This document shows positions 11,346-46,853 of a stretch of 64,000 bases of DNA, one piece after another (within the stretch, counting starts at the first letter, position 1; the number at the start of each line of letters is the position of its first letter). The position numbers and the translations under genes are program-made. The notes under the pieces are model-generated. The model had not been told where the DNA came from and searched no databases. It worked only from the letters and a program-made list of their open reading frames with translations. The stretch comes from a virus. Its lineage: Duplodnaviria; Caudoviricetes. The stretch covers positions 1-64,000 of the IMG/VR virus record IMGVR_UViG_3300033121_002140, one strand, 5' to 3'.

Positions 11346-11756
11346 ATGGTGGCAGGCAGGGATCTTGGGCTGACTCCGGCCGAAAAGGCGGCCTTGATCG
11401 CAGGTTGCTTCGCACCCAGCGGCTCGACCGGGGCATCGAGCTTCACGTCTCCGCTCGTGAGAAAGCTGTCGCCGTTGCCTAGCCTGCGCGACATCGTCTC
11501 GATCCAGCCCATGCCGACCCCTAGCTCCCAGCTGTTCTACCTGGACTGGCAGTTGCAAGAGACATACAGGTGGGCCCGGCCCGGCATGGGCCCCAGACCA
11601 GGCGCGATCGTGATCGGCACATGCGAGGGCGAGAAGCCCAGGCGCACCGTGTACCTCGTCACGGCAGTCAAGAACGCACGCGTGGAGCTGACGGCCGGGC
11701 ATGGGTCACGCGGCGTCTCGGTCGCTGACATCGAACCTGCTGACGCGAATACGTAG
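11346..11756 (+). CDS. small protein fusing a gp23 (T4 major capsid) Gol-like segment to an SH3-like domain
   Basis: LVRKLSPLPSLRDIVSIQPMPTPSSQLFYLDW followed by PRPGAIV...YLVTAV. Confidence 0.75.
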   Translation: MVAGRDLGLTPAEKAALIAGCFAPSGSTGASSFTSPLVRKLSPLPSLRDIVSIQPMPTPSSQLFYLDWQLQETYRWARPGMGPRPGAIVIGTCEGEKPRRTVYLVTAVKNARVELTAGHGSRGVSVADIEPADANT

Positions 11757-12573: not shown

Positions 12574-13028
12574 TGAACGAGACGATCGTGAGGGTGACGC
12601 GCCTTCCGCACGCTGAGGGGCTACCGCTGCCCGCGTACCAGACCGAAGGAGCGGCAGCGATGGATCTCTCGGCAGCCCTCGCCGAGGACGCGCCCGTCGT
12701 GCTGTCCCCAGGCGCGCGGGCGCTGGTGCCCACTGGGCTCGTGCTCGCCATCCCGCGTGAGCACGAGGTGCAGGTGAGGTCCAGGTCGGGCCTGGCCCTG
12801 AGGCATGGGGTGACGGTGCTCAACTCACCCGGCACCATCGACAGCGACTACAGGGGGGAGCTGGGCGTGCTCCTCGTCAACCTGGGCACCGAGCCCTTCA
12901 CGGTCAGACGCGGTGACAGGATCGCACAGGCGCTCCTGGCGCCTGTCGCCCGGTGCGCGTGGCGCGAGGAGACGGCGCTCGATCAGACAGCACGGGGCTC
13001 GGGCGGCTACGGAAGCACGGGGCGCTGA
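12573..13028 (+). CDS. dut: dUTP diphosphatase (trimeric)
   Basis: motifs [36 protein letters not shown]. Confidence 0.97.
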
Positions 13029-35268: not shown

Positions 35269-35547
35269 TCACTCCTCGGGGCCTTGAAGGGCCTCGCGGA
35301 ACGTGTCGGCCGCGTCCCTGTGCGCGATCTCGCTCTCGATCTTCAGGATCCGCATGACGCTCTTCAGGGTCTTCAGGTCCACCTTCTCGGCGAACTCGTC
35401 GTCCAGGGTCCGCATGTCCTCCCTGATGCCGTCGATCTGGCCCTCGAGCATGTCGCGCCGCTCGACGTACTCCTTGACGGCCTTCTTGAGCTCATCGAGC
35501 TCCGCTGGGTCCATCGCCTCGATCTTGTTCACAGCACACTTGGCCAC
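35269..35547 (-). CDS. dsDNA-binding protein, T4 DsbA / GapR-like
   Basis: helical EGQIDGIREDMRTLDDEFAEKVDLKTLKSVMRI pattern. Confidence 0.75.
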   Translation of the reverse strand: MAKCAVNKIEAMDPAELDELKKAVKEYVERRDMLEGQIDGIREDMRTLDDEFAEKVDLKTLKSVMRILKIESEIAHRDAADTFREALQGPEE

Positions 35548-36146
35548 TAGATCACCTCGTCACATGACTGTAGCATGCTGTGCGCCGCCTGTTTCTTCTT
35601 GCCAGAGGAGATGTTTGCTCTGTGCTCTGCTGTCAACGCTCGACCCGTCAAGGCAACAGAGATCTTCGCTCTCACAGACGGATCAGTCATGACCTGCGTG
35701 CTTCCCATGCTGATCTTCCGTCGAGTTTCTCTGCTGAGCTTTCGTCCTATGGCAGCGGCACGCATCTTTGCTCGACTCTCTGCGCTCACTGCACGACCTC
35801 GCTTGGCGTCGCCGATCTTTTCGCGAGTCGCTTTTGAGTGTGCATATCCACACGTACCATCACCGCCGCTGGTCTCATTGTAGCCCTGGGTACCGTTGGC
35901 TCGTGTTGCAGCGATCCAATCTACCTCTGCTGCTTTTGCCTCGAGCTCAGTGTCGAATGTCTCAAGCAGGACGTGGATCCAGGCATCATCACCGTGCTTT
36001 CGAATCGCTCGGTGAAATGCTGTCGTCGAACCGCTTTTCGCAGCTGCTACGTGCATCTTCCAGCGAGCCATCATGTCACGGCTTGTCCAACCGATGTAGC
36101 GCTTTCCCGTCTTGATGCAGAGGTGACAGTAGACAGTAAATCTCAC
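35547..36146 (-). CDS. GIY-YIG homing endonuclease with NUMOD3 repeats
   Basis: TVYCHL...RYIGWT, RW..H, FHRAIRKHG, GYNETSGGDG, HSKATREKIG. Confidence 0.9.
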   Translation of the reverse strand: MRFTVYCHLCIKTGKRYIGWTSRDMMARWKMHVAAAKSGSTTAFHRAIRKHGDDAWIHVLLETFDTELEAKAAEVDWIAATRANGTQGYNETSGGDGTCGYAHSKATREKIGDAKRGRAVSAESRAKMRAAAIGRKLSRETRRKISMGSTQVMTDPSVRAKISVALTGRALTAEHRANISSGKKKQAAHSMLQSCDEVI

Positions 36147-37249
36147 AGTGCCTCGATGGTCCGCACAGCGTCGACGTATGCCTTGACGTAGGGATGGTCC
36201 TTGGGCAGGCCTGCCTTCAAGGCGGCCTCGGCCTGCGCGGTGAGGTTGGCCGCGTACACCTTCTTCATGGCGGCCCTGACGCGACGCAGGACCTCCTCCC
36301 GCGCGGCGTCGGCTTCCTGGCCCTGCAGGGCTCGCAGCTTGTCGAGCCCGGGCAGCCTGCGGCCCACGACCCCTTCCACGTCCTCGAAGCTGCGGGCCCT
36401 GAGCACCACCTTGGCCTTCGCGACCACGTCGCGTAGCGTCTTCTTGATCGCCGTCTGGCCGTCGTGGGCCAGACGGCGAGCGACGGGCGAATCCCGCAAC
36501 GCGGCCCGCACCTTCCTGCTCGTCAGCACCTGCGCGAGCGCGGGCCTCTTCTGTGCCTCCGCGTCCTCGCTGATGACATGACCCAGGAAGACCCCGCCCT
36601 CGAACGCCCACGTGTCCATGCCCGGGTCCTCACGGCGTGACCACTTGTCGCCGCTGCCTGACCCTCCGTGCCCGTACGTCTGCTTGACGCGGGCGACGAA
36701 GCGCTCGACGGCAGGGTTGCCGCCGCCGAGCACGTTGATGACGGCAAGCGCCGCACCGGGGGAACGCGCGACCATGCCCGCGCTCAGAAAGGCCCAGGGC
36801 GCGAACATGAACGCTGCCGCCATGACGTCGTTGCCCAGCAGCGCGCCCTTCGTGGCCCCATAGACGTCCGAGTAGCGCTGCCTGATCGCGTCCAGCCTGC
36901 GCTTTTCCTCGGCGAAGATGTCGGCGTAGTCGCTCGACAGCGCAGGCACCAGCGTCGTCGCGGCTGCCTCGAAGGCGACCTTGACGGCCGACTGTGCCCG
37001 GGCCGACAGCTCGGCGGTCTTACCCGCCGCGGTCTTCACGACGTCCGTGAAGGGCTTCACGAAGGTCGCATACAGCTTGTCGGGGCTGCCAAAGTGCATG
37101 CCGTACGGCATCTCACCCATGGAGGCGCCGTACAGGTCGCCCACGCCGCCATCGTCCTCGACGAGGCGCGGCTCCTTGGTGGACAGCGCATGTCCATGCC
37201 GGGTCGCGGTCTCGATGTTCTTGGCTGCCTCACGCAGGCGTCTAGCCAT
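36143..37249 (-). CDS. late-class hypothetical protein, possibly virion-associated
   Basis: CTAGTTA 4 nt upstream of ATG; LVED and ISED potential cleavage sites. Confidence 0.75.
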   Translation of the reverse strand: MARRLREAAKNIETATRHGHALSTKEPRLVEDDGGVGDLYGASMGEMPYGMHFGSPDKLYATFVKPFTDVVKTAAGKTAELSARAQSAVKVAFEAAATTLVPALSSDYADIFAEEKRRLDAIRQRYSDVYGATKGALLGNDVMAAAFMFAPWAFLSAGMVARSPGAALAVINVLGGGNPAVERFVARVKQTYGHGGSGSGDKWSRREDPGMDTWAFEGGVFLGHVISEDAEAQKRPALAQVLTSRKVRAALRDSPVARRLAHDGQTAIKKTLRDVVAKAKVVLRARSFEDVEGVVGRRLPGLDKLRALQGQEADAAREEVLRRVRAAMKKVYAANLTAQAEAALKAGLPKDHPYVKAYVDAVRTIEAL

Positions 37250-37256
37250 GCCGTAA

Positions 37257-37976
37257 CTAGGCCGCGAGCTTGGCCCTGATCGCAGGCAGTGCCGCTGCGA
37301 TCACGGAGACCTGGTACGCGTGCATGGGCGGCAGCCGGTCGACCGGATGCCAACGCACGGCCACGTTCTCGCCGTCAGCGACCCGGGCCTCGGATCCGGT
37401 CGATCCGACGGCAGGCCGGGCCAAGAAGACCCTGACGGTCTTGTCCTCGTCGAAGGACTCGGTCCGGGTGGGCGGCAGCTCCTCCTCGGCCACCACCGCG
37501 AGCCCTGTCTCCTCGAGCGTCTCGCGGACCGCGCAGTCCCGTGGGTCCTCGCCCTCGTGCACGTGCCCCTTGGGAACGCCCCAGGTGGGCTTCTTGAGCC
37601 ACGGCTTGACCAACAGCACCTCTGGGCCCTCTGGTCCTGCCCGGTACGTCAGGCATCCGCACGACAGGGTCCTACGCTTCGTCTTCAGGGCCTCGAGCGA
37701 GGCCCTGCGCGACGCATGCTCGGCATTCACCTGCTCGACGAGCCCGGCGGGCGCGGGCGGGGACCTGGGCGGAGCTGGCACGATGTTTGATGCCGACAAG
37801 TGCATGACCCTGCCGGTGTCAAGCACGACGGCCCACGTGCGCTGGCCCCGAGGCGCACCGTCGGGCTTGTCGGCCTTCCACTCCTGCCTGAGTACCGTGC
37901 CGAGGTCGTTGCCGACGAAGACCCTGTCACCGCCCCTCGGCTTGACATGATCGTCGTCGCTGCTAGCGGTCCGCAT
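37257..37976 (-). CDS. SH3-like domain fused to NUDIX hydrolase
   Basis: PRGGDRVFV...WAVVLDTG; WGVPKGHVHEGEDPRDCAVRETLEETG; TACGAT -10 box 6 nt upstream. Confidence 0.9.
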   Translation of the reverse strand: MRTASSDDDHVKPRGGDRVFVGNDLGTVLRQEWKADKPDGAPRGQRTWAVVLDTGRVMHLSASNIVPAPPRSPPAPAGLVEQVNAEHASRRASLEALKTKRRTLSCGCLTYRAGPEGPEVLLVKPWLKKPTWGVPKGHVHEGEDPRDCAVRETLEETGLAVVAEEELPPTRTESFDEDKTVRVFLARPAVGSTGSEARVADGENVAVRWHPVDRLPPMHAYQVSVIAAALPAIRAKLAA

Positions 37977-38080
37977 GGGCCCATCGTACGCCGCGCGCCT
38001 CACGCACGACACCACGCCGTGATCGGTGCCAGAGAACCCATGAAACCCGTGCCATGGCAACCACCATGTTGTTTCGCAGG

Positions 38081-39136
38081 TTAAGCGTGGGCCCCGTCGA
38101 AGATGCGACGGACCCGTTCCAGCTGCTGGTCGTTGAGCCTGCGCAGGGCGCGCTCCTTGTCGAGGGCCAGGTCGCGCCCGGCCTTCTTGCTGACGTTGTC
38201 GGCCAGGCCCGTCTCGAACCCATGCAGGACCTGCGCGAGCATCTCGTCCCTGTCATACGCGCCCGCTGCGTCGAGCGTGTTGGCCAGGCCCACGATCCCG
38301 TGCGCGAGGTCGGCCACCGTGACGTTGTCGGGATCGAGGCCCGGATGCCGTCGCAGCACTGGGTCAGGCGTGTAGCCCGGGCCTAGCAGGTGCTCCGCGA
38401 TGTCGGCCAGGAAGGTCCTGAAGCTGGTCGACACGGTCCTGACGTCGACCCCCGTCCTGAACCGGGACGGGACGCGTTCCTTCCCGCGGTATCGTGCCAG
38501 CACGCCCTCTCCCCCGATCGACAGCGTCAGGAAGTCGCCCAGGGCCGCGTACAGGTTGCCCGTCACGTAGCCCTTGATGCCCCGCTCAGGCGTGTAGCGG
38601 CCTGCGGCCCACTCGGCACTGTGCGGGTGCGTGACCACCGTGTCCACCTGGACCAGGCCGCCGTCGGGCATGACGAGGATGACGCTGAGCGGGTCCGACC
38701 CTGAGCCGCCGGAGCGCTTTGTGCCCAGCGTCAGGTCCACGTCGACCCCCTCGGGCGACTCCTCGCGCAGGTACTTGGCCATGAGCTCCGTGTACCTGCG
38801 CAGCGACGCGGCCTGGCCCGCCCTGCGATCTCCCTTGGAGGCGTCCACGGGCAGCGACACGAGGTAATCGATGTCGCCGTAGGTCGCGTCGGGCCTGTCG
38901 ACCTCGTCAGCCGCCGCGTGGGTGGCAGAGCCTGAGGCGCGCACGGGTTGCACTGGCTCGGTGCCGTGCTCCTCGAGCCAGGCGTTCCATCCCGCCAAAA
39001 AGCGCTCGTAGGCACGTGAGGCCTGCCTGACCAGCGCAGGCGTGAGGTCGCGCCTGCGGTCGGCGGGCACCTTGAGCCCGCCCTCAAAGAGAGCACGACG
39101 GACGATGGCGCGGAGCGCGCCCAGCCTGATCTGCAT
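38081..39136 (-). CDS. Pol-beta-fold nucleotidyltransferase with LRxxVRxxLFE leader
   Basis: SGS...YGDIDYLV and VQVD acidic triad. Confidence 0.75.
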   Translation of the reverse strand: MQIRLGALRAIVRRALFEGGLKVPADRRRDLTPALVRQASRAYERFLAGWNAWLEEHGTEPVQPVRASGSATHAAADEVDRPDATYGDIDYLVSLPVDASKGDRRAGQAASLRRYTELMAKYLREESPEGVDVDLTLGTKRSGGSGSDPLSVILVMPDGGLVQVDTVVTHPHSAEWAAGRYTPERGIKGYVTGNLYAALGDFLTLSIGGEGVLARYRGKERVPSRFRTGVDVRTVSTSFRTFLADIAEHLLGPGYTPDPVLRRHPGLDPDNVTVADLAHGIVGLANTLDAAGAYDRDEMLAQVLHGFETGLADNVSKKAGRDLALDKERALRRLNDQQLERVRRIFDGAHA

Positions 39137-39184
39137 CTTGGACCCTGGGCACGTCGACGTGTCATGCGGCGTCGAGTGCGTGGT

Positions 39185-39192
39185 ATAGCTAG
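39185..39192. promoter_or_regulatory. bidirectional late-type motif (ATAGCTA on +, CTAGCTA on -)
   Basis: lies between divergent genes starting at 39136 (-) and 39198 (+). Confidence 0.55.
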
Positions 39193-39197
39193 GCCAG

Positions 39198-39794
39198 ATG
39201 CGTGCGGACAGACCAAGGCGGATCGGGTTGGTGGCCATGAGCGCAAAGCCGTTCACGGCAGGCCATGACAGCATCATCCAGATGGCAGCGAGCGAGTGCG
39301 ACGAGGTGCTCGTGTTCGTGTCACTCGCGGACCGACGCCGGCCCGGTGAGTTCCCGATCATGGGCACTGACATGGCGACGATCTGGCGGGAACTGGTGGA
39401 ACCCGGCCTGCCCACGAACGTCACGATCGAATATGCCAGCAACCCGATGGCCAGGATCTGGGCGACCCTGGGCGCCGCGAACGAGTCGGGCTCGCCCGAC
39501 TCGTTCGCGATCTATGGGGACGAGCGCGACACCGCGGCACGCTTCGGTCCGGCAGCGCTCGCGAAGTATGCCAGCGGTCTGCAGGCCTCAGGCAGGATCT
39601 CGTTTCGGACGCCGCCCAGGATCACGTCAGGCACAGAGATGCGGAAGGCGCTGGCGGATGGGGACCTGGACGCGTTCAGGGCAGGCATGCCAGCCTGGTT
39701 GGACGCCGACCGGGCCTGGCAGGTCCTGCGGGCCCATCGCACGAACGAGGAACTCCTGCGGAGCTTCGTCAGGCGCTCGATAGCTCGCGCCTGA
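39198..39794 (+). CDS. HIGH-superfamily nucleotidyltransferase (cytidylyltransferase-like)
   Basis: KPFTAGH (HxGH variant), VLVFVS, ITSGTEMRKAL. Confidence 0.85.
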   Translation: MRADRPRRIGLVAMSAKPFTAGHDSIIQMAASECDEVLVFVSLADRRRPGEFPIMGTDMATIWRELVEPGLPTNVTIEYASNPMARIWATLGAANESGSPDSFAIYGDERDTAARFGPAALAKYASGLQASGRISFRTPPRITSGTEMRKALADGDLDAFRAGMPAWLDADRAWQVLRAHRTNEELLRSFVRRSIARA

Positions 39795-41838
39795 CGAAGG
39801 CCTCGAGGCGCTCGAGCGGCGCGCCCAGGGCATCGGGCCCACGTTCCTTCACGCGCTCCCTGAGCTTCTCGACGAGCTCCTCGGCCATCTGGTCGAGCTC
39901 GGATGCGAAGGTCTCCGACCTCCGCAATGCCGCCGCGAGCTCCTCGAAGCGTCGGAGGGCCTGGGCCCTGTGCCCAGGCCCCAGCAGGACAGAGACGAGC
40001 TCGTCGGGCCGGTCGGTCACGAGCTCACGCTCGACCGTGCGCCATGCCGTGTGACCGCCCTGCTTGTTGGGCCTCCGCGCCTGCACGACCCGGTGCAGGC
40101 CCCTGTCGGAGTCGACCACGTAGCGTTCGCGATCGAGCTCGCCCTGCTTTCCTGGGAACGCGCGCCCAGACGCATGACGTGCGATGACGTCCAACAGCAT
40201 GTTTCGGACCACACCCTTCACTGTCGAATATTCGGGATGACCCTTCACGGGTGAAGGCCCGTAGCGCGTCCAGCCTAGAAGCCCGACGTCGCCGACCATC
40301 GCGTCCACCTGGACCGCGCCGGACTCCAGCGGAAACGCGATGCTCACGATGTTGGAGCCCACCCTGCGCAGCTCGATGCCTGGGCGTGCAGCGACGAGCG
40401 CGGCGTACAGGCCTTCCCTGCCGCCCGCATGCTCCATCGCGAGGTCGACGTCGCCCATCGGGTCCTTCTTCCATGTCGTGCCGATGGGCGTGATCTTCAG
40501 GGCGCCTGCACGGACCAGGAGGCCTTCGATCTCTGGCCAGGCTGCCTGCAACCCTGCCCTCGTCACAGGCCCAACGTCTGAGAACGAGTGACCGCCCTCG
40601 GCCATCAGGCGCCGACGTGCCTCGACGAGCCCAGCTCCACCCTCGTGCGTGAAGAACCCGAGGATCCTGTTCATCGGTGCGAACGCACCCGTGAGCTTGT
40701 AAGGCCTGCCCTTGTGCATGAAGACGATGCCCTCGATCGGGCTGATGTCGTCCAGGCGCGTGAGCTTGTCCTGCACGGCAGCGAGGATGGCCTTCGCCTG
40801 GGGCGCGCGCGAGCGCCCTAGGGCCGTCATGGCCTTCGCGGTGGCAGCTCGAAGGCGCGCGGCCTCGGCCGAGGGATCGCTGACGAAGAGGGAGCTGACA
40901 CCCCTGAGCACGCCCACCGCGAACTGGCGCATCGTGCGCTCGAGCGGGGCCAACGCCTGTTCGACCAGCCTGCGCTCGTCATCCACCAGCGCCTTCGACG
41001 TGGCGTACATGTCAGGTGCCATCTTCTTGATGGCCGTCAGGGTTGGTGCTCCAGGCACGCCTGCGATCCTCGCTGCGAGCGCGGCATGCAGCGCGTCCGG
41101 AAGGGTCATGTTCGACTCTTCGTCCAAGATCGACTCGATCCTGCGGTGGACGTACTCGCCGATCGTGGCGCCGTCGTCCAAGCGGACCTGGGCCATGGCG
41201 GCATCGAGCCCGGACAGGGCCTGCGCCATCACAGTCCCGTCCACGAGGCGATGGAGCTCCACGGCGGCCCAGGGATGCAGCGTCCATCCCGTCTCACGGG
41301 TCCCGGCACGCATCGTGTCGATCCATCGCGCGAGCCGCGTGCCGCCCAGGCCTTCCTCCTTGATAGGCCGGCCGGTCGCAGGGTCGACGACGAAAACGGG
41401 CTCCCTGTGGAACACGACGTTGTTGCCGTCGTACCTGATCGTGTTCGGCGCCTCGGCGTACATCACCTCGATCGAGTACCACCTGTCGCCTGCCGGACCG
41501 AAGATGTCGATCCGAGCGTCGGCAGGCATGGCCCTCAGGCCGCGCTCAAGCGCGGCGAAGGCGCCTGTCAGCGCGGCCTCGATCACACCGCGGCCTGAGA
41601 ACCTGCGCGCCAAGGCGGGGGCGTCCATGCCGCCCCCCTTGATGTCGGACGAGTTGCGGGCAGCACGGACTCCGCCCGCTTTCTCGTTCCAGGTGAAGAC
41701 CAGGTTGACGCCGTCGGTCTTTTCGGACACGCCCTCAAGCCTGGCCTCCGCGATCGAGGTGACCACGTCCTTGAGGTCGTCGAAGGTCAGATCCCAGTCC
41801 TCGACCAGGTGAGACAGGTGTCCGCTGGCGCCGCCCAT
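39769..41838 (-). CDS. two-domain protein: ligase-like KxDG domain plus Pol-beta-fold nucleotidyltransferase
   Basis: GGASGHLSH, SEKTDGVN, IEGIVF...YKLTGAF; C-terminal IGTT...GDVDLA...VQVDAM. Confidence 0.75.
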   Translation of the reverse strand: MGGASGHLSHLVEDWDLTFDDLKDVVTSIAEARLEGVSEKTDGVNLVFTWNEKAGGVRAARNSSDIKGGGMDAPALARRFSGRGVIEAALTGAFAALERGLRAMPADARIDIFGPAGDRWYSIEVMYAEAPNTIRYDGNNVVFHREPVFVVDPATGRPIKEEGLGGTRLARWIDTMRAGTRETGWTLHPWAAVELHRLVDGTVMAQALSGLDAAMAQVRLDDGATIGEYVHRRIESILDEESNMTLPDALHAALAARIAGVPGAPTLTAIKKMAPDMYATSKALVDDERRLVEQALAPLERTMRQFAVGVLRGVSSLFVSDPSAEAARLRAATAKAMTALGRSRAPQAKAILAAVQDKLTRLDDISPIEGIVFMHKGRPYKLTGAFAPMNRILGFFTHEGGAGLVEARRRLMAEGGHSFSDVGPVTRAGLQAAWPEIEGLLVRAGALKITPIGTTWKKDPMGDVDLAMEHAGGREGLYAALVAARPGIELRRVGSNIVSIAFPLESGAVQVDAMVGDVGLLGWTRYGPSPVKGHPEYSTVKGVVRNMLLDVIARHASGRAFPGKQGELDRERYVVDSDRGLHRVVQARRPNKQGGHTAWRTVERELVTDRPDELVSVLLGPGHRAQALRRFEELAAALRRSETFASELDQMAEELVEKLRERVKERGPDALGAPLERLEAFVRRELSSA

Positions 41839-41842
41839 CTGC

Positions 41843-42796
41843 TCAGCTCATGACCTCGAACCTGGGCTCGCCCTTGGAGATGTACAGGAAACGCAGGTGA
41901 TCGTTCAGCTCCGCGTGCGGGACGATCATGAACTGCTGCGGGCTGACCAACACCACGCCTGCCACGTTGTCGAAGACAGTGCTGGCCTGAACGCCCCTGA
42001 GCCACACGTCCCTGATGAAGGTCCTTGGCTTCCTGAAGGCCGGATGCGAGAACGTGCCCGCGAACAGGTCGCACACCTCGACGCCCATGTCAGAGTCCGA
42101 CAGACCCAGCTCCCGTGAGGTCCTCACGTAGGTGGCAACGTCGATCTCACGCTCGGAACCGTTCCATGACACCTTGCGCTTGCACTTATTGGCGTCCCCG
42201 ATCATGTGCTTGACGTACTCCATCACCTGCAGGAGGCCCACCGGGTTCTTGTGGGTCTTGCCCACGATACGGCCCTGTGACAGCTCCCCGTTCATGACCA
42301 TCGGAATGTCGTGCTCGATGAAGTCCTCGACGTCGAAGGACTTGATGCCGGTCTCAGACTCATACGCGGGCAAGGCGCTCATGTCGATGCGTGAAAAACC
42401 TTGCCGCAGCTGCCTGCAGATCTCCTCGATCTGCTGCCTGATTCCCTCGACCGCACGCCGGCCCTCGACCCCGGGCCTGATCATGTCGCTCGCGTTGGGT
42501 TCCTTGACCTCCCATTTGTTGCCCTGGGCATCGATGACGTCGTACGAGACGCTGTGACCCTGGATCTCGCCACCCAGTTCCCAGGCCAACTTCAATTCGC
42601 CTGGTCCAGTGTCTCGGTCGCCCGCTCGGTACTTGTGCGGGTTGCGTGGGCTCCAGTCGACCCAGACGCCCGTGGGGGGCATGGTCCGACGGGTCGAGGC
42701 AGACGCCTTGGTTGATTGGACCCGCGTGCCCGTGTCACGCTCGACGAGCACGAGTGAGACGTAGCGTCGAAACAGTGGGAGTGTGTGTTGTTCCAT
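41843..42796 (-). CDS. PD-(D/E)XK nuclease-like protein, late class
   Basis: SYDVI...WEVKE; TTACTTA upstream; LFRRYVSLVLVE leader. Confidence 0.65.
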   Translation of the reverse strand: MEQHTLPLFRRYVSLVLVERDTGTRVQSTKASASTRRTMPPTGVWVDWSPRNPHKYRAGDRDTGPGELKLAWELGGEIQGHSVSYDVIDAQGNKWEVKEPNASDMIRPGVEGRRAVEGIRQQIEEICRQLRQGFSRIDMSALPAYESETGIKSFDVEDFIEHDIPMVMNGELSQGRIVGKTHKNPVGLLQVMEYVKHMIGDANKCKRKVSWNGSEREIDVATYVRTSRELGLSDSDMGVEVCDLFAGTFSHPAFRKPRTFIRDVWLRGVQASTVFDNVAGVVLVSPQQFMIVPHAELNDHLRFLYISKGEPRFEVMS

Positions 42797-42938
42797 GTGT
42801 CTCCGCGCGACCAGCACGGTGCGCTGCCTGGACTAAGTAATGCCCTTAGGTGGCACTGTGGAACTACCACCGCGACCGGTGTTTTTTACACCAATGCCGG
42901 TCCAGCAGGTTCACGCTTGACGCGACGTCGACGAGGCT

Positions 42939-43568
42939 TCACTTTCGGTGAGGTTTGATCGGGATCGGAACGGGCGGGGACGCGTCTTCCGCCTTCTTTG
43001 GCGAAGGAGCGCCGCCGCTCTTTTTCACGACCACATTCGGCTTGATGGAACGGCGCTGCTGCCCGCCTGAACCCTGGCCCTCGCCTGAGTCGACGCCGTT
43101 CTTTTTCATCGCGACCGCGGGCTCAGGATCGGCAGGATCGACTGCCTGCTGTCCCGGGACCTCTCCCGTCACGATCTGCGCGATTCCCTTCAGGAAGGCC
43201 AGCAGCGCGACTCTCTCGGGCTTCTTGAGGCTCTTGACGTATGCCTCCATCGCATGCTTGATGTCATCGTCACGGAAGGAACGACCCGACCGGATCGCGT
43301 TCAGCTTGCCCACGATGTTGTCGAAGCTCACCTCGCCCGTCTTGAGCTCTTCGGCGTCGGCGTCCATGGTCTTCGACGGTGTGCCGTCTTCGGCTCCGTC
43401 GTCGTCCGTGACGCCGTCGTCCATGCCCCCTGCGAGCGCAGCCGCAGTCGCGTCCTGGCTGTCCTTTTCTGACAGGCCCTGACGCGCGAGGTCGGCCTTG
43501 ATGCCGTCCTCTGCCAGAAGACGACCCAGCACATCACCCAACAGTGCACCGGTCCTGATCACGGGCAT
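42939..43568 (-). CDS. late-class hypothetical protein (acidic, leader ending LLAE)
   Basis: GGAGG RBS; TGATG overlap. Confidence 0.75.
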   Translation of the reverse strand: MPVIRTGALLGDVLGRLLAEDGIKADLARQGLSEKDSQDATAAALAGGMDDGVTDDDGAEDGTPSKTMDADAEELKTGEVSFDNIVGKLNAIRSGRSFRDDDIKHAMEAYVKSLKKPERVALLAFLKGIAQIVTGEVPGQQAVDPADPEPAVAMKKNGVDSGEGQGSGGQQRRSIKPNVVVKKSGGAPSPKKAEDASPPVPIPIKPHRK

Positions 43569-43777
43569 CAGCGACCTCCTCGAACCGGAGACCCATACAC
43601 GGTCCTGTTCACGGGCGCCTCGCGTCCGCGCCGGTTCAGGCGGCGCTGGGGCGTCTCACCCAGGACCTTGGCGTCCTCCTGCCTGATCCGGCGCTCGCCC
43701 AGCAGGATCGCGTCCATGAACTTGTCGAAGGTGAACGCTCCTTCGTCCATGAGGGCCGAATCGACGTCGTTGTCCAT
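43568..43777 (-). CDS. hypothetical protein
   Basis: ATAGCTA 5 nt upstream of ATG. Confidence 0.7.
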   Translation of the reverse strand: MDNDVDSALMDEGAFTFDKFMDAILLGERRIRQEDAKVLGETPQRRLNRRGREAPVNRTVYGSPVRGGR

Positions 43778-44260: not shown

Positions 44261-44615
44261 CGTCGTCCCACTCCTCATCGTCATCGGGCGCGTACGCGAC
44301 CTCCCGAAAGAGTACATCGCACGCCTGCGCGTGCTCACGCTCGATCTCGGTGACGACCCCGAGGCCTGCGCGGACGAGCGTCACAGTGACGTCCATGTCA
44401 CGGATCCCGAGCTCAGACTCCGCCCCTGTCTCGGCCTCGAGACCCAGCAGGGACACGACGAACGAGTCGCGCAGGCGCCGGGCCCTGAAGGAGTACGTCT
44501 TGACGAGCGCACCCGGCCTGCCCACGAGGCGCCACCTGGACGACGGCAGCACAGGACAGGGCACGGGCGTCCTGGCGGCGACGACGACAGGGCCTTTTTC
44601 GGTCGCTGGGATCAC
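44229..44615 (-). CDS. pterin-4a-carbinolamine dehydratase-like fold protein
   Basis: W...LVKTYSF....V.VTL....VTEIERE pattern; catalytic His residues not evident. Confidence 0.55.
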   Translation of the reverse strand: MIPATEKGPVVVAARTPVPCPVLPSSRWRLVGRPGALVKTYSFRARRLRDSFVVSLLGLEAETGAESELGIRDMDVTVTLVRAGLGVVTEIEREHAQACDVLFREVAYAPDDDEEWDDDGGPGTTPDD

Positions 44616-45361
44616 GTCATCACCGCCCCTCCGACCACGCACTCTCCCTGGGACGTGCCGTGGGTCCACACCCGCAGCCCCCTGTCGATCGTGCAGGAAC
44701 CGCCCACACCGGCAGCACCGCACGCGCTGGCGACGACCACGTTCGCACGCGTCTCCTCAGCGAGGTCGACCCACTGGGCGTCAGGAGTCCCGTCGGGCGC
44801 CTGACCCCTCGAGGTCAGGAGACACAACACGTCCACTGACCCAGGGCCGTAGAACAACGCCTGGTCGGCGACGCCAAAGGGTCGGGACCTGCGCCACGAG
44901 TTCATCGAGTCGCGCCCGACCAGAACGCCCAGCCTTCCCACGGACGTGGCCACGACGGGCACCGGCAGCTCACCGCGCGTCGCCCAAAGGTGGTCCGTGC
45001 CCGCTAGGTTGCGCTTCTGCGCGTTGGCCATGAGTCCCGCAGGACCGAGCAGGGCGGCGGAGCTGTACAGCTTTCCCCTGCACGACTCGACGTACCCGAA
45101 GACGACATGGCAGCCAAACCTGCGCGTCACGCGCAGGAGGCACTGGGTCTGGTGTCCGTCCCTTGCCTGCGCGCAGGCGGAAGCCTCGCGCAGGCTGCCC
45201 ATGAAAGGCCCGACGGTGCATAGCTCTGGGAGCGCGATCACCTGCGCGCCCTTTGCTGCGGCCTCGAACGCGAGCTGCTCGGCCCGCGCCAGGTTGAGGG
45301 ACGCCTCGCCCGGCACGGGTTCGAACTGGACGGCAGCGACCAGGTGGACCCCGGGCGTCAC
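44612..45361 (-). CDS. carbon-nitrogen hydrolase (nitrilase) fold protein lacking the catalytic Cys
   Basis: VAAVQF, ALPEL, YSSAAL, QKRNL present; ICxD reads VGRD. Confidence 0.85.
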   Translation of the reverse strand: MTPGVHLVAAVQFEPVPGEASLNLARAEQLAFEAAAKGAQVIALPELCTVGPFMGSLREASACAQARDGHQTQCLLRVTRRFGCHVVFGYVESCRGKLYSSAALLGPAGLMANAQKRNLAGTDHLWATRGELPVPVVATSVGRLGVLVGRDSMNSWRRSRPFGVADQALFYGPGSVDVLCLLTSRGQAPDGTPDAQWVDLAEETRANVVVASACGAAGVGGSCTIDRGLRVWTHGTSQGECVVGGAVMT

Positions 45362-46584
45362 TCGTCCTCCGCGTCCTCGCTCCAGTCCTTGTAGGACTTC
45401 TGCACGTAGCCCGACAGGAACTCACGGAACGCGTCCAGGCCCGTCAGGGTGTCGAGGTCGTTGGGCAGCTGCGCCAGCTCGGTCTCGAGGTCGGCCAGCA
45501 GCTGCGTCCTGACGAACTCCGGGTAGCCGTCCAGCTCCGCCACCATGCCCGGGTGGTCCTTGAGCAGCTGCACGTCGGCTCCTGCGAGCTCGCCTGAGCC
45601 CTCAAGGTACCTCGCGTACTCGGCCACGCTGTCGGGCAGCAGCTCCTTCATGTCGCGGCCCGTGAGCAGCGCCAGGATCTTCTGGGCCTTCCTGTCGTCG
45701 TTCAGCGACTCGATGAAGTCACGTGCGGCAGTCAGGATCACCAGCTGCGCCTCCTCGGGCATCGCGCCCTCGCCTGACAGGTCGCCGAACATCATCTTGT
45801 GCATGTGACCGAACCTGCGCATCGCACGCGCGGCCATCGCCTGCGCGCCCATGACAGACATGCCCAGTTCCTTGGAAATGTCGCCGAACTCCTGGCCGTC
45901 GTCGCCCTTGGGCACGGACCACTTGCCCTTCTCGCGCTCGGGCTCGTCGTCCTCAGGCGACTCGTCGACCACCTCGTAGCGAGCGCGCGGGTCCTGCTTC
46001 TTGAGCCGTGCCATCCAGTCGTCGGCGGCCTTCCGCGTGTCGAAGGAAGCGTCGGGCTGCGCCTTTCGTGTGCCCTTGGGCGTGAAGCCGTAGACCTTGA
46101 AGGGCTCGTCGTCGAATGCTGACAGGGCGTAGGTGTCAGGCCCGGAGTAACCCAGATCACGACCGGGCATCGCCTCGGCGATCATGCGCCGGACCGCGCG
46201 CCGGACAGCCTCCTCGACCTGAGAATCACCCCGCGTGTTCCTGTCCTGAGCGCCTGCCATCTTGATCCCCCTCATTCGTCCCTCGTCGTCTCCGTCGTTG
46301 TCGCCGATCGCCTGCAGGGCCGCCTGCACCTGCTTGTACAGGCCCGGCACGTCCTCGTCCCCCAGGTCCTGCGTGAGCCTGCTCAGGGCCACCGCGAACT
46401 CGGCCTTGTCCTTGGGCAGGTAGCTCGCGCCCTCAGGACCGTCGACTGCGGTCGTCGGATCGACGACGGAATTGGGCTCGACGGGTGCCGTCGGCCGCGT
46501 GGGTCCAGCGTCGAGGCCATGACCCTCCATCGCCTCCGAGACCAGCTCGCGGAGGGCGGCCCGTGTGAAGGCGATGGGCCTCAT
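45358..46584 (-). CDS. late-class protein with LRELVSE leader and possible HTH
   Basis: FGDISKELGMSVMGAQ HTH-like segment; internal VRRAVRRMIAEA repeat of leader. Confidence 0.75.
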   Translation of the reverse strand: MRPIAFTRAALRELVSEAMEGHGLDAGPTRPTAPVEPNSVVDPTTAVDGPEGASYLPKDKAEFAVALSRLTQDLGDEDVPGLYKQVQAALQAIGDNDGDDEGRMRGIKMAGAQDRNTRGDSQVEEAVRRAVRRMIAEAMPGRDLGYSGPDTYALSAFDDEPFKVYGFTPKGTRKAQPDASFDTRKAADDWMARLKKQDPRARYEVVDESPEDDEPEREKGKWSVPKGDDGQEFGDISKELGMSVMGAQAMAARAMRRFGHMHKMMFGDLSGEGAMPEEAQLVILTAARDFIESLNDDRKAQKILALLTGRDMKELLPDSVAEYARYLEGSGELAGADVQLLKDHPGMVAELDGYPEFVRTQLLADLETELAQLPNDLDTLTGLDAFREFLSGYVQKSYKDWSEDAEDE

Positions 46585-46853
46585 GCCGTGCCCTCGGGGG
46601 CTGCCTGGTCTGCTCGCGAGTCCGTGAGACGACGACCGAAATAGAGCCCGAGGATGGGCACCAGGTAGGCAGAGGCAGAGGCAGGATCGAAGGCCCTGAA
46701 CTCCACCTGACCGACGCGAGCCAGCATCCCGCATGCGTACGCGAGCGTGACGATGAGGAATGCGACGGCTGCGAACGTGAGGGAGGCCGAGGGCCTCCCA
46801 CGCGTGTCTCGGATCCAGATCCTGGAGGTCGTGCTGGCGGACTGCGGGTTCAT
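46581..46853 (-). CDS. two-TM membrane protein, holin-like candidate
   Basis: two TM helices; ATACTTA 6 nt upstream. Confidence 0.65.
   Translation of the reverse strand: MNPQSASTTSRIWIRDTRGRPSASLTFAAVAFLIVTLAYACGMLARVGQVEFRAFDPASASAYLVPILGLYFGRRLTDSRADQAAPEGTA

What the first reader, a model, noticed from the sequence alone, without database searches (positions are those of the whole stretch)
38081..41838. Late nucleotidyl-transfer cassette: two Pol-beta NTase domains, a HIGH NTase and a KxDG ligase-like domain
38081-39136 has GS..GDID..QVD. 39198-39794 has KPFTAGH. 39769-41838 joins an EKTDG ligase-like domain to a second GT..GDVD..QVD NTase through LVEARRRLMAE-GG, which mirrors the LFE-GG start of the first NTase. 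This suggests proteolytic release of Gly-Gly-starting domains. The first two genes share one bidirectional late motif. Candidate roles are RNA/tRNA end repair (with the SAK-type HAD at 10565), NAD+ rebuilding after NADase defences, nucleotide-signal synthesis, or protein nucleotidylation at the start of infection.
Basis: partly seen in the sequence, partly recalled or inferred. Interest (0 to 1): 0.72.

Follow-up and report, generated by a model that had tools for sequence, protein, structure and literature searches.

The report
Phage ligase–PolX–NMNAT-like enzyme module
Three neighbouring genes of an uncultured giant phage encode a ligase-like enzyme, two minimal polymerase-X-like enzymes and an NMNAT-like enzyme that other phages fuse into single proteins, and the ligase-like and polymerase-like parts always start with Gly-Gly after a leader that looks like the tag phage T4 uses to pack proteins into its head, which suggests an uncharacterised enzyme set delivered with the phage DNA.

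Summary
The motifs and coordinates are real. AlphaFold models with structure searches show three folds. P0003 (39769-41838, -) is an RNA-ligase-like adenylyltransferase domain joined to a minimal family-X-polymerase-like domain. P0001 (38081-39136, -) is a paralogous PolX-like protein. P0002 (39198-39794, +) is a HIGH-motif transferase closest to archaeal/NadR NMNAT and to the cyanophage 'cytitidyltransferase'.

The three belong together, because other phages fuse them in every combination, including triple fusions. The ligase-like family is large and seen only in viruses: 2,828 clusters at 50% identity, with no match for P0003 or its relatives in Pfam, PHROGs or NCBIfam.

In about 320 instances, GG follows either the initiator Met alone or a leader ending [LIVM]-x-E. 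That is the cleavage consensus of the T4 gp21 head protease. Carrier phages encode this protease (7 of 7 near-complete genomes). A cyanophage homologue of the HIGH enzyme carries a T4-type leader and was found in virions by mass spectrometry.

Most likely this is a head-packaged, protease-matured set of polynucleotide-end enzymes (fill-in plus sealing). The substrate and the NMNAT-like partner's role are unresolved. The 'bidirectional late motif' could not be reproduced.

The parts
39772..41838 (-). P0003, 689 aa: ligase-like domain plus PolX-like domain in one ORF. The stop codon is 39769-39771. The ORF starts Met-Gly-Gly, with an in-frame stop two codons upstream.
   Evidence: AlphaFold model with pLDDT 82
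40597..41838 (-). Ligase-like (covalent nucleotidyltransferase) domain, residues 1-414. Features: N-terminal G-G-x-x-G-H-x-x-H; motif I E-K40-T-D-G; A60-R61 (Ia-like); E124 (III-like); H144; E369-G-I-V-F (IV-like); Y-K381-L-T-G (V-like); and a helical insert at about 200-356.
   Evidence: VIA-align matches: NgrRnl 5cot Z 8.7 (191 aligned), T4 Rnl2 1s68 Z 7.6, Trl1, Rnl1, REL1, archaeal RNA ligases and ASFV ligase, all spanning residues 1/6 to about 390-405. Conservation. The family has 2,828 clusters.
40597..40641 (-). Inter-domain leader, residues 400-414, ending L411-M-A-E414. It is the predicted cleavage site before G415-G416.
   Evidence: pLDDT below 50. L411, E414 and G415 are nearly invariant and G416 is invariant. 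It aligns to the P0001 leader.
39772..40596 (-). PolX-like nucleotidyltransferase domain, residues 415-689. Features: G453-T-T-W-K-K-x-x-x-G-D463-V-D465, D512, and V-K-G-V-V-R-N.
   Evidence: Matches: TthPolX 3au2 Z 9.7 (160 aligned), TdT Z 8.2, Pol beta Z 7.7-7.9, ASFV PolX Z 7.0. Other NTases match only the ~90-residue core. Foldseek top hits are Pol beta and Pol lambda.
38084..39136 (-). P0001, 351 aa: stand-alone PolX-like paralogue (palm plus thumb plus C-terminal helical hairpin). The stop codon is 38081-38083.
   Evidence: Model with pLDDT 92.9 and pTM 0.88. The nine best VIA hits are all family X polymerases with Z 9.3-10.2; ASFV PolX aligns 170 of 176 residues at rmsd 3.2. Foldseek top hit is Pol lambda. 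hhalign to the P0003 C-domain gives 94% probability.
39083..39136 (-). P0001 N-terminal leader, residues 1-18, ending L-F-E18 before G19-G20. It is a predicted targeting/cleavage peptide.
   Evidence: In the family, 111 of 119 members have a leader ending [LIVM]xE and 8 of 119 start Met-GG. The leader has low pLDDT.
39198..39794 (+). P0002: HIGH-motif (TxGH here, HxGH in relatives) nucleotidyltransferase with an SxTxxR motif. It converges on P0003 with a 26-nt overlap. An alternative start is Met14 at 39237.
   Evidence: Pfam Citrate_ly_lig N-terminus E 1.4e-6; PHROG cytidyltransferase/NMNAT. Profile against PDB: archaeal NMNAT 1f9a E 4.9e-4, NadR-type 9x6f. It is homologous over its full length to the HIGH domain of the fusion proteins.
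37257..38060 (-). Nudix hydrolase (domain at residues 139-248 of the longest ORF; the true start is probably later). It is syntenic with the cassette in relatives.
   Evidence: PF00293 E 7.9e-18; synteny in L003 and L004
41843..42817 (-). Upstream gene ending 4 nt before P0003, 324 aa, with no family match. It has a D...E-V-K motif reminiscent of PD-(D/E)xK nucleases and an N-terminal leader ending L-V-E. It is conserved upstream of the P0003 homologue in L004.
   Evidence: the nuclease reading is an inference from the motif only
36143..37249 (-). 368-aa protein of unknown family, downstream of the Nudix gene. Homologues in L003 and L004 all have a leader ending [LI]-x-E before a conserved DDGG.

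Best explanation
The three genes form one enzyme module of phage origin.

SHOWN
- P0003 joins a ligase-type (Lys-nucleotide) transferase fold to a minimal family-X-polymerase-like fold.
- P0001 is a second PolX-like paralogue.
- P0002 is a HIGH-motif transferase of the cyanophage 'cytitidyltransferase'/NMNAT-like family.
- In other phages the same three domains are fused in all combinations.
- The ligase-like and PolX-like domains always begin Gly-Gly. The GG comes directly after the initiator Met or after a variable leader ending [LIVM]-x-E.

INFERRED
1. Both domains need a free N-terminal glycine. It is made by Met removal, or by cleavage after Glu by the T4 gp21-type head maturation protease, whose consensus is (L/I)-x-E.
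2. Leader-bearing forms include P0001 and the PolX half of P0003, and perhaps the neighbouring 324-aa and 368-aa proteins. These are targeted to the prohead like T4 internal proteins and Alt, trimmed there, and delivered with the DNA.
3. In the cell they act on polynucleotide ends. The PolX-like enzymes add or fill in nucleotides at a 3'-OH, and the ligase-like enzyme adenylylates and seals.
4. The NMNAT-like enzyme and the Nudix enzyme supply or police an adenylyl-dinucleotide cofactor or substrate.

Whether the substrate is DNA or RNA is not resolved.
For: Folds:
- P0003 N-domain matches RNA ligases (Z 6.5-8.7, at least 12 ligase entries, whole-domain coverage). Its C-domain matches PolX enzymes (Z up to 9.7).
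- P0001's nine best hits are all PolX (Z 9.3-10.2). Foldseek agrees.
- Catalytic residues are invariant: K40/D42/G43/E124/E369/K381, the D-x-D...D triads, and the K457-K458 pair placed like the Pol beta R-R.

One module:
- The profile search finds the ligase-like domain alone, with PolX, with HIGH, and as PolX+ligase-like+HIGH triple fusions (P0198, P0226).
- 60 of 80 IMG/VR loci have HIGH fused or adjacent.
- Mel-JY01 has HIGH followed by the ligase-like domain.
- Synteny holds in L003 and L004.

Gly-Gly rule:
- Ligase-like domain, protein level: 64 Met|GG, 63 [LIVM]xE|GG, 4 LxC|GG, out of 131.
- PolX-like family: 8 Met|GG and 111 [LIVM]xE|GG, out of 119.
- DNA level: 35 Met|GG with the upstream frame closed, and 33 with a leader, out of 71.

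Protease and packaging:
- PF03420 (T4 gp21 family) is present in 19 of 40 carrier records and in 7 of 7 that are at least 90% complete.
- It is present in 9 of 23 records carrying P0001 relatives, including the closest jumbo fragment.
- T4 substrates read from the T4 genome end the same way: gp24 ..LRE|S, gp23 ..LTE|A, IPII/III MKTYQEFIAE|A, Alt MELITE|L.
- Cyanophage HIGH homologues start MKNFSSFLTE|A, MKSFTSFFTE|A and MKSFFQFLSE|A.
- The S-CREM2 homologue was detected in virions by MS (PMC10665884) and matches the HIGH profile at E 3.6e-12.
- One family member is fused to an M23 peptidase.
- The genes flanking the ligase-like gene in T4-like contigs carry similar leaders.
Against: - No sequence-level link to any characterised ligase or PolX. 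P0001 and P0003 have no match in Pfam, PHROGs or NCBIfam. T4 Rnl2 against the family profile gives 0.4% probability.
- Z scores of 7-10 are moderate. The P0003 model rests on only 10 sequences.
- Motif V has one Lys, not K-x-K.
- The dominant architecture is ligase-like plus HIGH. PolX is rare outside this lineage (2 of 80 loci), so fill-in plus sealing may not be the ancestral function. The role of the HIGH enzyme is unexplained.
- The window's own 82-kb record shows no gp21-type protease or head genes. The cassette sits among non-structural genes: GroEL, sigma factor, FEN, AlkB-like.
- P0002 and the N-terminus of P0003 have no leader.
- No proteomic data exist for the ligase-like or PolX-like families.
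- [LIVM]xE is a short motif that is frequent by chance. Only its fixed position before GG is significant.
Confidence: 0.5

Rival explanations
1. Cytoplasmic RNA (tRNA) repair system, not virion cargo. The ligase-like domain is an RNA ligase. The PolX-like domains restore missing 3' nucleotides, as RlaP does beside RNA ligases. The [LIVM]xE-GG element is only a structural N-cap or linker feature of the two domains.
For: The best structural matches of the N-domain are RNA ligases rather than DNA ligases (Z 8.7 against 6.5-6.8). Jumbo phages commonly pair RNA ligases with a Pol-beta NTase (RlaP), as reported in PMC7824862. RlaP adds 1-2 NMPs to damaged RNA 3' ends (bioRxiv 10.64898/2025.12.29.696909). 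A Thg1 gene lies 4 kb from a P0001 homologue (L008). The window lies in a non-structural region.
Against: - There is no PF10127 (RlaP) or RNA_ligase Pfam match.
- No kinase/phosphatase end-healing partner lies next to the cassette, and the window has no tRNA genes.
- A purely structural motif would not explain why leaderless genes always place Met exactly before GG, with no 1-3-residue extensions. It would also not explain why HIGH homologues without GG carry T4-type leaders and occur in virions.
- The RNA-versus-DNA ligase Z difference is within noise.
Confidence: 0.2
2. NAD+-centred module. P0002 plus the Nudix enzyme is a split NadM-type NMNAT/ADP-ribose pyrophosphatase that rebuilds NAD+ against NADase defences. 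The ligase-like domain uses or makes NAD+ or another adenylyl dinucleotide (for example an NAD+-dependent ligase recharged in situ, or Ap4N/NAD-cap chemistry).
For: The closest characterised relatives of the HIGH domain are archaeal and NadR-type NMNATs. One source names a homologue NMNAT. The HIGH gene and the Nudix gene are adjacent in relatives. A carbon-nitrogen hydrolase with weak NAD+ synthase similarity is syntenic 3 kb away. Ligase-like plus HIGH is the dominant fusion.
Against: - All NMNAT scores are far below the curated cut-offs (15-28 bits against 127-341), and the similarity is confined to the HIGH-motif strand.
- No NadV/Nampt is found in the 82-kb record, although phage NadM is reported always to accompany NadV (PMC9503650).
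- The ligase-like domain has no LigA-type Ia domain.
- This reading gives no role to two PolX-like enzymes.
Confidence: 0.15
3. Nucleotide second-messenger synthesis or protein nucleotidylation (cGAS/CD-NTase-like or Fic-like logic) that manipulates host signalling.
For: CD-NTases, OAS and MB21D2 appear among the structural matches of the P0003 C-domain (Z 6.4-7.3). An injected T4 precedent (Alt) modifies host proteins.
Against: Those matches cover only the ~90-residue NTase core. PolX enzymes align over 150-205 residues including the thumb, and they fill the top of both lists. The consistent partnership with a ligase-fold domain points to polynucleotide ends.
Confidence: 0.05

Closest known systems
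ATP-dependent RNA ligases (T4 Rnl2, Naegleria Rnl5, Trl1 ligase domain) of the covalent nucleotidyltransferase superfamily
   Same: The predicted fold of the nucleotidyltransferase domain is the same. Motif I reads E-K-x-D-G-x-N, as in Rnl2 and REL1. There is an Arg about 21 residues after the Lys, plus an acidic motif III, an E-G-x-V-F motif IV and a Lys-containing motif V.
   Different: There is no significant sequence similarity. A ~150-residue helical insert lies between motifs IIIa and IV. Motif V has a single Lys. There is an invariant N-terminal G-G-x-x-G-H-x-x-H that must sit at the mature N-terminus. It lacks the Rnl2 C-terminal domain and an OB domain. It is usually fused to a HIGH-motif transferase.
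Family X DNA polymerases, especially the minimal ASFV Pol X (palm plus thumb only)
   Same: The palm plus thumb architecture matches, with 170 of 176 ASFV Pol X residues aligned. The G-[ST]...G-D-x-D...D catalytic set is present. In the P0003 C-domain, a basic pair sits 5-6 residues before the DxD, as in Pol beta. No 8-kDa domain is present.
   Different: Pfam DNA_pol_B_palm and thumb models do not match. P0001 has 18 rather than 10 residues between GS and DxD. It has an extra N-terminal helix and a C-terminal helical hairpin. It has a mandatory N-terminal Gly-Gly and a removable leader. It is found only in phages, with no GenBank phage hit for P0001.
RlaP (PF10127), the RNA-ligase-associated Pol-beta nucleotidyltransferase of RNA repair systems
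   Same: It shares the same logic: a Pol-beta-superfamily transferase genetically coupled, and here fused, to an RNA-ligase-like enzyme in jumbo phages.
   Different: It is not a member by sequence, since PF10127 gives no match at E up to 1. The closest fold here is PolX. The ligase partner is a different, uncharacterised family.
Cyanophage 'cytitidyltransferase' (PHROG 395/3041) and NadM/NadR-type NMNAT
   Same: P0002 and the fused HIGH domains are homologous to the T4-like cyanophage gene. The HIGH domain of fusion protein P0227 is about 50% identical to it, and 565 phage records match. The HxGH and SxTxxR motifs are present. The nearest solved relatives are NMNATs.
   Different: The function of the cyanophage gene has not been tested. 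P0002 has TxGH, has no N-terminal leader and is a separate gene. Similarity to true NMNATs is weak and local.
T4 internal proteins IPI-III and Alt (capsid-targeting leader cleaved by the gp21 head protease)
   Same: The short N-terminal leaders end in (L/I)-x-E directly before the mature protein. Carrier phages encode gp21-family proteases. A homologue was detected in virions.
   Different: The cargo here would be nucleic-acid enzymes rather than small basic proteins or an ADP-ribosyltransferase. The residues after the cut are always Gly-Gly, even in leaderless forms. P0003 would be cut internally into two enzymes. Processing has not been shown experimentally.
PolX-ligase pairs or fusions of large eukaryotic DNA viruses (ASFV Pol X plus ligase; NCLDV PolX fused to an OB_DNA_ligase domain)
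   Same: A minimal gap-filling polymerase is coupled to a sealing enzyme in one virus or one polypeptide (Atlas row 5).
   Different: The ligase family is different (LigA or ATP-DNA-ligase type there). Those systems have no HIGH partner and no leader/GG feature. A base-excision-repair role is established only for ASFV.

Membership tests
Covalent nucleotidyltransferase superfamily (polynucleotide ligases / capping enzymes) | Nucleotidyltransferase fold | tested here: met
   The AlphaFold model (pLDDT 82) aligns over residues 1/6-390/405 to at least 12 ligase entries, with Z 6.5-8.7 and 174-203 residues aligned. Z is moderate.
Covalent nucleotidyltransferase superfamily (polynucleotide ligases / capping enzymes) | Motif I KxDG with invariant Lys, plus motifs III, IV and V | tested here: met
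   K40, D42, G43, E124, E369-G370 and K381 are invariant in 10-11 homologues and nearly invariant in 53 diverse members. Assignment of III, IIIa and V rests on order and spacing, not on a residue-level structural alignment. Motif V has one Lys.
Covalent nucleotidyltransferase superfamily (polynucleotide ligases / capping enzymes) | Formation of a covalent enzyme-(Lys)-NMP intermediate | not testable with these tools
   This needs a biochemical adenylylation assay.
Rnl2-type RNA ligase (Pfam RNA_ligase PF09414) | Significant sequence/profile similarity | tested here: not met
   There is no Pfam match at E up to 1 and no PDB sequence match. hhalign of T4 Rnl2 against the family gives 0.4% probability, although motifs I and Ia are the segment it aligns.
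Pfam DUF6267 (PF19782) | Match to the family model | tested here: not met
   P0003 has no Pfam match. None of 53 relatives matches. The model does not ring on 5 carrier genomes. The Atlas lists DUF6267 on 24-95% of members of the nearest clusters, so it is probably a sister branch.
Family X DNA polymerases | Palm plus thumb fold | tested here: met
   For P0001, the nine top VIA hits are all PolX, with Z 9.3-10.2, and ASFV PolX aligns 170 of 176 residues. For the P0003 C-domain, Z reaches 9.7 over 150-184 residues. Foldseek top hits are Pol beta and Pol lambda.
Family X DNA polymerases | Catalytic Asp triad and G-S/T nucleotide-binding motif | tested here: met
   D88, D90, D165 and G69-S70 are invariant in 50 sequences. 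D463, D465 and D512 are invariant in 10 sequences, while G453 and T455 are invariant and T454 is variable.
Family X DNA polymerases | Match to Pfam DNA_pol_B_palm / DNA_pol_B_thumb; HhH fingers; 8-kDa domain | tested here: not met
   There is no Pfam match at E up to 1. The models show no 8-kDa domain, which ASFV Pol X also lacks.
Family X DNA polymerases | Template-directed or terminal nucleotide addition to a 3'-OH | not testable with these tools
   This needs primer-extension assays.
RlaP (PF10127) | Match to the family model | tested here: not met
   Neither P0001 nor P0003 has a Pfam match at E up to 1.
HIGH-motif nucleotidylyltransferase superfamily (cytidylyltransferase-like) | (H/T)xGH motif on the first strand-helix, plus an ISxTxxR-type motif | tested here: met
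   T20-A-G-H23 (HxGH in 5 of 6 relatives) and S144, T146 and R149 are invariant. Matches: Pfam PF08218 at 28.5 bits, above its 20.9 cut-off, over the N-terminal 37 residues; PHROG 395/3462/3041; TIGR00125 at 25.6 bits, just below its 27.7 cut-off.
NMN adenylyltransferase (NadM/NadR type) | Score above the curated family cut-offs; NMN-binding residues | tested here: not met
   TIGR01527 scores 15.6 bits against a cut-off of 181. The fused relative P0227 scores 20-22 bits against 127-181. The PDB profile hit to 1f9a has E 4.9e-4 and covers mostly the HIGH strand. It resembles the family but is not shown to be a member.
T4-type capsid-targeted, gp21-processed head proteins | N-terminal leader ending (L/I)-x-E at the boundary of the mature protein | tested here: met
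   P0001 has ..A-L-F-E|GG and the P0003 linker has ..L-M-A-E|GG. T4 reference leaders were read.
T4-type capsid-targeted, gp21-processed head proteins | Phage encodes a gp21-family (Peptidase_S77) prohead protease | tested here: inconclusive
   None was found in the window's 82-kb record, which is 24% complete. The protease is present in 9 of 23 fragments carrying P0001 relatives and in 7 of 7 near-complete genomes carrying the ligase-like domain.
T4-type capsid-targeted, gp21-processed head proteins | Protein present in virions in processed form | not testable with these tools
   The only indirect evidence is that the HIGH-family homologue of cyanophage S-CREM2 was detected by virion MS (PMC10665884) and has a T4-type leader.

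The most novel reading that the evidence does not exclude
A very large, uncharacterised class of phage 'cargo enzymes' exists. Ligase-like, PolX-like and NMNAT-like transferases are made as pro-enzymes and carried into the prohead by a T4-type leader. The head protease then switches them on by exposing an N-terminal Gly-Gly that is itself part of the active site, for example as an alpha-amine nucleophile (lyase) or a phosphate-binding N-terminus. They are injected with the genome and perform a first-minute nucleic-acid end reaction that no known phage system performs. Candidate reactions are repair or sealing of the entering DNA, and adenylyl/NAD-type capping of polynucleotide 5' ends.
Probability: 0.25. 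Interest if true: 0.85.

Novelty: new variant of a known kind. Interest (0 to 1): 0.7.

Why it matters
The ligase-like family is seen only in viruses. It is large: 2,828 clusters at 50% identity and at least 584 IMG/VR stretches. Neither it nor the PolX-like family has an annotation, a Pfam/PHROG match in this lineage, or a published study that I could find.

Linking these two families to the long-unexplained 'cytitidyltransferase' core gene of T4-like cyanophages gives all three a common, testable context. The strict N-terminal Gly-Gly rule with a gp21-type cleavage motif is a concrete prediction about how phages pack and activate enzymes. It would extend the short list of known injected phage enzymes (T4 Alt, N4 and phiKZ virion RNA polymerases) to nucleic-acid end-processing enzymes. 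New compact ligases and minimal PolX enzymes are also of practical interest as molecular biology tools.

Tried and rejected
- **Direct BLASTP of P0001 against P0003.** Not significant (E 0.22). Homology appeared only with profiles.
- **Sequence search of PDB with P0001 and P0003.** Nothing meaningful.
- **Pfam, PHROGs and NCBIfam for P0001 and P0003.** No matches.
- **tblastn of P0001 against 50,697 GenBank phage records.** No match. P0003 hit only Mel-JY01 and two uncultured huge phages.
- **T4 Rnl2 against the family profile.** Not significant.
- **PF19782 on carrier genomes.** Silent.
- **Search for a repeated promoter motif.** A 14-mer with 3 mismatches, the palindrome, 7-mer enrichment in rough intergenic regions, all TATA sites and a sigma-70 scan gave no support for a shared late motif. 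My gene calls for that test were crude.
- **The 486-aa gene between the P0003 and HIGH homologues in L003.** It is not a P0001 relative.
- **Genome-wide scan of the 82-kb record for [LIVM]x[EC]GG.** Only the two cassette sites fall in clear genes.
- **NadV/Nampt, gp21 protease and gp23 capsid searches in the own record.** Absent or sub-threshold in this 24%-complete fragment.
- **Context of the ligase-like gene in 78 IMG/VR loci.** The neighbours are mostly unknown families. PIN-PhoH, a PurZ-like enzyme and an ATLF-like metalloprotease are occasional neighbours and gave no clear functional lead.
- **Literature.** Searches for DUF6267, Mel-JY01 and 'cytitidyltransferase' found nothing. The 2016 RNA-repair survey could not be fetched.
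- **cGAS/CD-NTase reading.** Rejected, because those enzymes match only the NTase core.

Full report
**Setting.** The window is the first 64 kb of an 81,961-bp IMG/VR virus record that CheckV rates 24% complete. It is therefore probably a fragment of a phage of about 340 kb. GC content is about 67%.

Around the finding, the window encodes a GroEL-type chaperonin, a sigma-70-type factor, an AAA ATPase, a FEN-type 5'-3' exonuclease, an AlkB-like dioxygenase, sugar epimerases, a glycosyltransferase, a GIY-YIG homing endonuclease, a carbon-nitrogen hydrolase and a Nudix hydrolase. There are no tRNA genes. This is an accessory region, not a head or tail module.

**The observation.** The three ORFs and every quoted motif are present at the stated coordinates.
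- P0001 (38081-39136, -) has G69-S70, G87-D-I-D90 and Q163-V-D165.
- P0002 (39198-39794, +) has K-P-F-T-A-G-H and an S-x-T-x-x-R motif.
- P0003 (39769-41838, -) has E-K40-T-D-G. After a low-confidence linker ending L-M-A-E414, it has G415-G416, G453-T, G462-D-V-D465 and Q510-V-D512.

P0002 and P0003 converge and overlap by 26 nt. P0001 and P0002 diverge across 61 nt, or 100 nt if P0002 starts at Met14 as one gene caller chose. The quoted residues are invariant or nearly so in the homologues.

The claimed shared 'late motif' could not be reproduced. The spacer contains a perfect 12-nt palindrome and a TATAGC. Neither recurs before other genes, no intergenic 7-mer is strongly enriched, and no sigma-70-like site is found.

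**Folds.** Pfam, PHROGs and NCBIfam are silent on P0001 and P0003. So are sequence searches of the PDB.

The AlphaFold model of P0003 has pLDDT 82 from 10 sequences.
- Residues 1 to about 395 align to Naegleria RNA ligase (Z 8.7, 191 residues), T4 Rnl2 (7.6), fungal Trl1 ligase domains (7.5-7.6), T4 Rnl1, the trypanosome editing ligase, archaeal RNA ligases and two DNA ligases (6.5-6.8). No competing fold matches this part.
- Residues about 420-640 align best to family X polymerases: Thermus PolX Z 9.7, TdT 8.2, Pol beta 7.7-7.9, Pol lambda 7.4 and ASFV Pol X 7.0. These alignments cover 150-184 residues.
- Poly(A)/U polymerases, CD-NTases, OAS and CCA enzymes match only the ~90-residue core.

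The AlphaFold model of P0001 has pLDDT 92.9 and pTM 0.88 from 50 sequences. Its nine best matches are all family X polymerases (Z 9.3-10.2). ASFV Pol X aligns over 170 of its 176 residues at rmsd 3.2 A. Foldseek agrees for both models.

A profile-profile comparison shows that the P0003 C-domain and the P0001 family are homologous (94% probability, E 8.6e-8). The C-domain has a K-K pair 5-6 residues before G-D-V-D, placed like the R-R pair that I recall in Pol beta. P0001 has K-G-Y-V-T-G-N, which resembles the Y-F-T-G-S thumb motif of Pol beta and lambda. Both resemblances are from memory and were not tested at residue level.

The ligase-like domain keeps the ordered motif set:
- E-K-x-D-G-x-N (motif I);
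- A-R about 21 residues later;
- E124;
- H144;
- E-G-I-V-F;
- Y-K-x-T-G.

It also has a ~150-residue helical insert and only one Lys in the motif V position. It has no detectable sequence similarity to T4 Rnl2.

For P0002, a six-sequence profile finds archaeal NMNAT (1f9a, E 4.9e-4) and NadR-type NMNATs first in the PDB, followed by PPAT and pantothenate synthetase. All curated NMNAT models score far below their cut-offs.

**One module.** A full HMMER scan with the P0003 family profile finds 2,828 clusters (50% identity) at E of 1e-3 or better. Annotating the best 150 with my own domain profiles gives these architectures:
- the ligase-like domain alone, about 400 aa;
- ligase-like plus PolX-like;
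- ligase-like plus a domain homologous over its full length to P0002;
- HIGH followed by ligase-like;
- two triple fusions, PolX-like + ligase-like + HIGH (P0198, P0226).

P0013 replaces the PolX half with a HIGH domain. Microcystis phage Mel-JY01 has HIGH followed by the ligase-like domain in a gene annotated as cytidylyltransferase-like. One member adds an M23 peptidase.

In 80 IMG/VR loci found with the ligase-like domain, 55 have HIGH fused, 5 have it nearby and 2 have PolX. The core pair is therefore ligase-like plus HIGH, and PolX is an addition typical of the window's lineage.

Close relatives keep the same gene order: carbon-nitrogen hydrolase, a 285-316-aa gene (homologous to the window's 324-aa upstream gene in L004 only; the L003 one has a different N-terminus and a weak NUMOD3 hit), the P0003 homologue, HIGH on the opposite strand, Nudix, then the 326-368-aa protein.

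The fused HIGH domain is about 50% identical to the 'cytitidyltransferase' of T4-like cyanophages, and 565 GenBank phage records match. The nearest clusters in the ESM Atlas and BFVD are all viral and unnamed. Some carry Pfam DUF6267, but that model does not match this lineage.

**The Gly-Gly rule.** Family-wide this is a strict rule.
- Ligase-like domain, 131 instances: the G-G-x-x-G-H-x-x-H start is preceded by the initiator Met alone (64), by a leader of 4 to more than 600 residues ending [LIVM]-x-E (63), or by L-x-C (4).
- P0001 family, 119 full-length members: Met alone in 8 and [LIVM]-x-E in 111.
- Raw DNA of 71 IMG/VR genes: 35 have Met|GG with the upstream frame closed within 0-16 codons, and 33 have a leader. 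Of the 3 exceptions, one is probably a GTG start.

No gene has a 1-3-residue extension. P0003 itself has an in-frame stop two codons before its ATG.

The simplest reading is that both domains need a free N-terminal glycine. Met aminopeptidase makes it in leaderless genes, and an endoprotease cutting after Glu makes it in the others. P0003 would then be cut into separate ligase-like and PolX-like enzymes.

**Which protease, and where.** (L/I)-x-E is the textbook consensus of the T4 gp21 prohead protease. I checked it against the T4 genome:
- gp24 starts M-A-K-I-N-E-L-L-R-E|S;
- gp23 has F-L-T-E|A-E-I-G-G;
- IPII and IPIII start M-K-T-Y-Q-E-F-I-A-E|A;
- IPI has ..I-T-E|A;
- Alt starts M-E-L-I-T-E|L.

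In those lines the sequences are the tool result. The cut positions are established knowledge.

The gp21 family (PF03420) is present in 19 of 40 virus records that carry the ligase-like gene, including all 7 that are at least 90% complete. It is present in 9 of 23 fragments that carry a P0001 relative, including the closest jumbo-sized one. The window's own 82-kb fragment shows none, which is uninformative at 24% completeness.

In T4-like contigs, the conserved genes on either side of the ligase-like gene also start with such leaders, for example M-K-D-R-N-D-F-I-A-E and ..F-L-L-G-E. Stand-alone HIGH homologues of cultured T4-like phages start M-K-S-F-T-S-F-F-T-E|A (P-TIM68), M-K-S-F-F-Q-F-L-S-E|A (S-SM2) and M-K-K-F-S-E-I-I-E|A (Melnitz).

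The S-CREM2 protein starts M-K-N-F-S-S-F-L-T-E|A and matches my HIGH profile at E 3.6e-12. [quoted passage not shown]

Within the window, several other proteins also show leaders ending [LIV]-x-E at positions conserved in homologues. These are the 324-aa protein upstream of P0003, the 368-aa protein beyond the Nudix gene, and the 209-aa and 69-aa proteins at 42939-43777. This evidence is suggestive only, because the bare motif is common by chance.

**Mechanism.** I commit to the following, at about 0.5 overall: a set of polynucleotide-end enzymes that are matured by removal of an N-terminal leader and, in leader-bearing forms, packed into the head and delivered with the DNA.
- The folds, the modular unity and the Gly-Gly rule are shown.
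- The protease identity and the packaging are inferred, from motif identity, co-occurrence and one proteomic datum on the HIGH family.
- The chemistry is inferred from the folds: 3'-OH extension by the PolX-like enzymes, and adenylylation and sealing by the ligase-like enzyme.
- Syntenic FEN and AlkB-like genes and an upstream protein with a PD-(D/E)xK-like motif fit a DNA-repair flavour.
- Better RNA-ligase matches and the RlaP precedent fit RNA repair.
- I cannot decide between DNA and RNA.
- The role of the NMNAT-like partner, which is the most conserved companion of the ligase-like domain, is the main gap. An NAD+- or dinucleotide-linked function is the chief rival.

**Novelty.** Each fold is known. 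So are the ideas of PolX plus ligase (ASFV, giant viruses), Pol-beta NTase plus RNA ligase (RlaP) and leader-directed head cargo (T4). The following appear to be undescribed in the literature I could search:
- these particular families;
- their three-way fusion network;
- their link to the cyanophage 'cytitidyltransferase';
- the absolute N-terminal Gly-Gly requirement.

I rate this a new variant of a known kind, with interest 0.7.

The scan's other note on this stretch (e1-5798410: three nucleotidyltransferase folds plus Nudix) agrees with this reading.

Noticed in passing
window 41843-42817 (-): This 324-aa gene ends 4 nt before P0003. It has no family match but carries Y-D-V-I-D...W-E-V-K-E, a PD-(D/E)xK-nuclease-like motif. 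Its N-terminal leader ends L-V-E; its homologue in L004 has ..L-L-A-E.
   Followed up: partly
window 36143-37249 (-), 42939-43568 (-), 43568-43777 (-): Three more proteins of unknown family have N-terminal leaders ending [LI]-x-E: ..R-L-V-E|DDGG, ..R-L-L-A-E|DG and ..I-L-L-G-E|R. The first is conserved in L003 and L004. The 69-aa protein resembles the small protein that precedes the ligase-like gene in T4-like contigs. This may be a cluster of head-cargo genes.
   Followed up: partly
window 44612-45361 (-): This is a carbon-nitrogen hydrolase (PF00795, E 3e-18) with weak similarity to the glutaminase domain of NAD+ synthase. It is syntenic with the cassette in L003 and L004. The adjacent 458-aa gene (45358-46734) has no match.
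   Followed up: no
window 35547-36150 (-): A GIY-YIG/NUMOD3 homing endonuclease is inserted next to the cassette. The longest ORF (35547-36611) overlaps the 368-aa gene, so the true start is internal.
   Followed up: no
window 39150-39161: A perfect 12-nt palindrome, CACGTCGACGTG, lies in the P0001/P0002 spacer. It is the only exact copy in the window. Two-mismatch variants are about twice as frequent as in shuffles.
   Followed up: partly
It lies 28 kb from the cassette. A dUTPase-like C-terminus lies at 12039-13028.
   Followed up: no
window 11451-11564 (+): There is a sub-threshold match (19 bits, E 4e-5) to positions 10-47 of the T4 Gp23 capsid family. It is probably noise.
   Followed up: no
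L036:6046-7056 and 9 other IMG/VR loci: A PurZ-like adenylosuccinate synthetase, a marker of 2-aminoadenine genomes, lies about three genes upstream of the ligase-like/HIGH gene in 10 T4-like contigs. A PIN-PhoH protein lies downstream in 13 contigs, and an ATLF-like metalloprotease in 14.
   Followed up: no
L020:1243-9684, L080:460-8391, L073:1048-6864: Giant ORFs of 1,900-2,800 aa with no Pfam match lie just upstream of the ligase-like gene in several T4-like contigs. They share a domain with a 130-600-aa neighbour family.
   Followed up: no
L008:13746-14516: A Thg1-like 3'-5' polymerase gene lies 4 kb from a P0001-family gene in a 300-kb phage contig.
   Followed up: no
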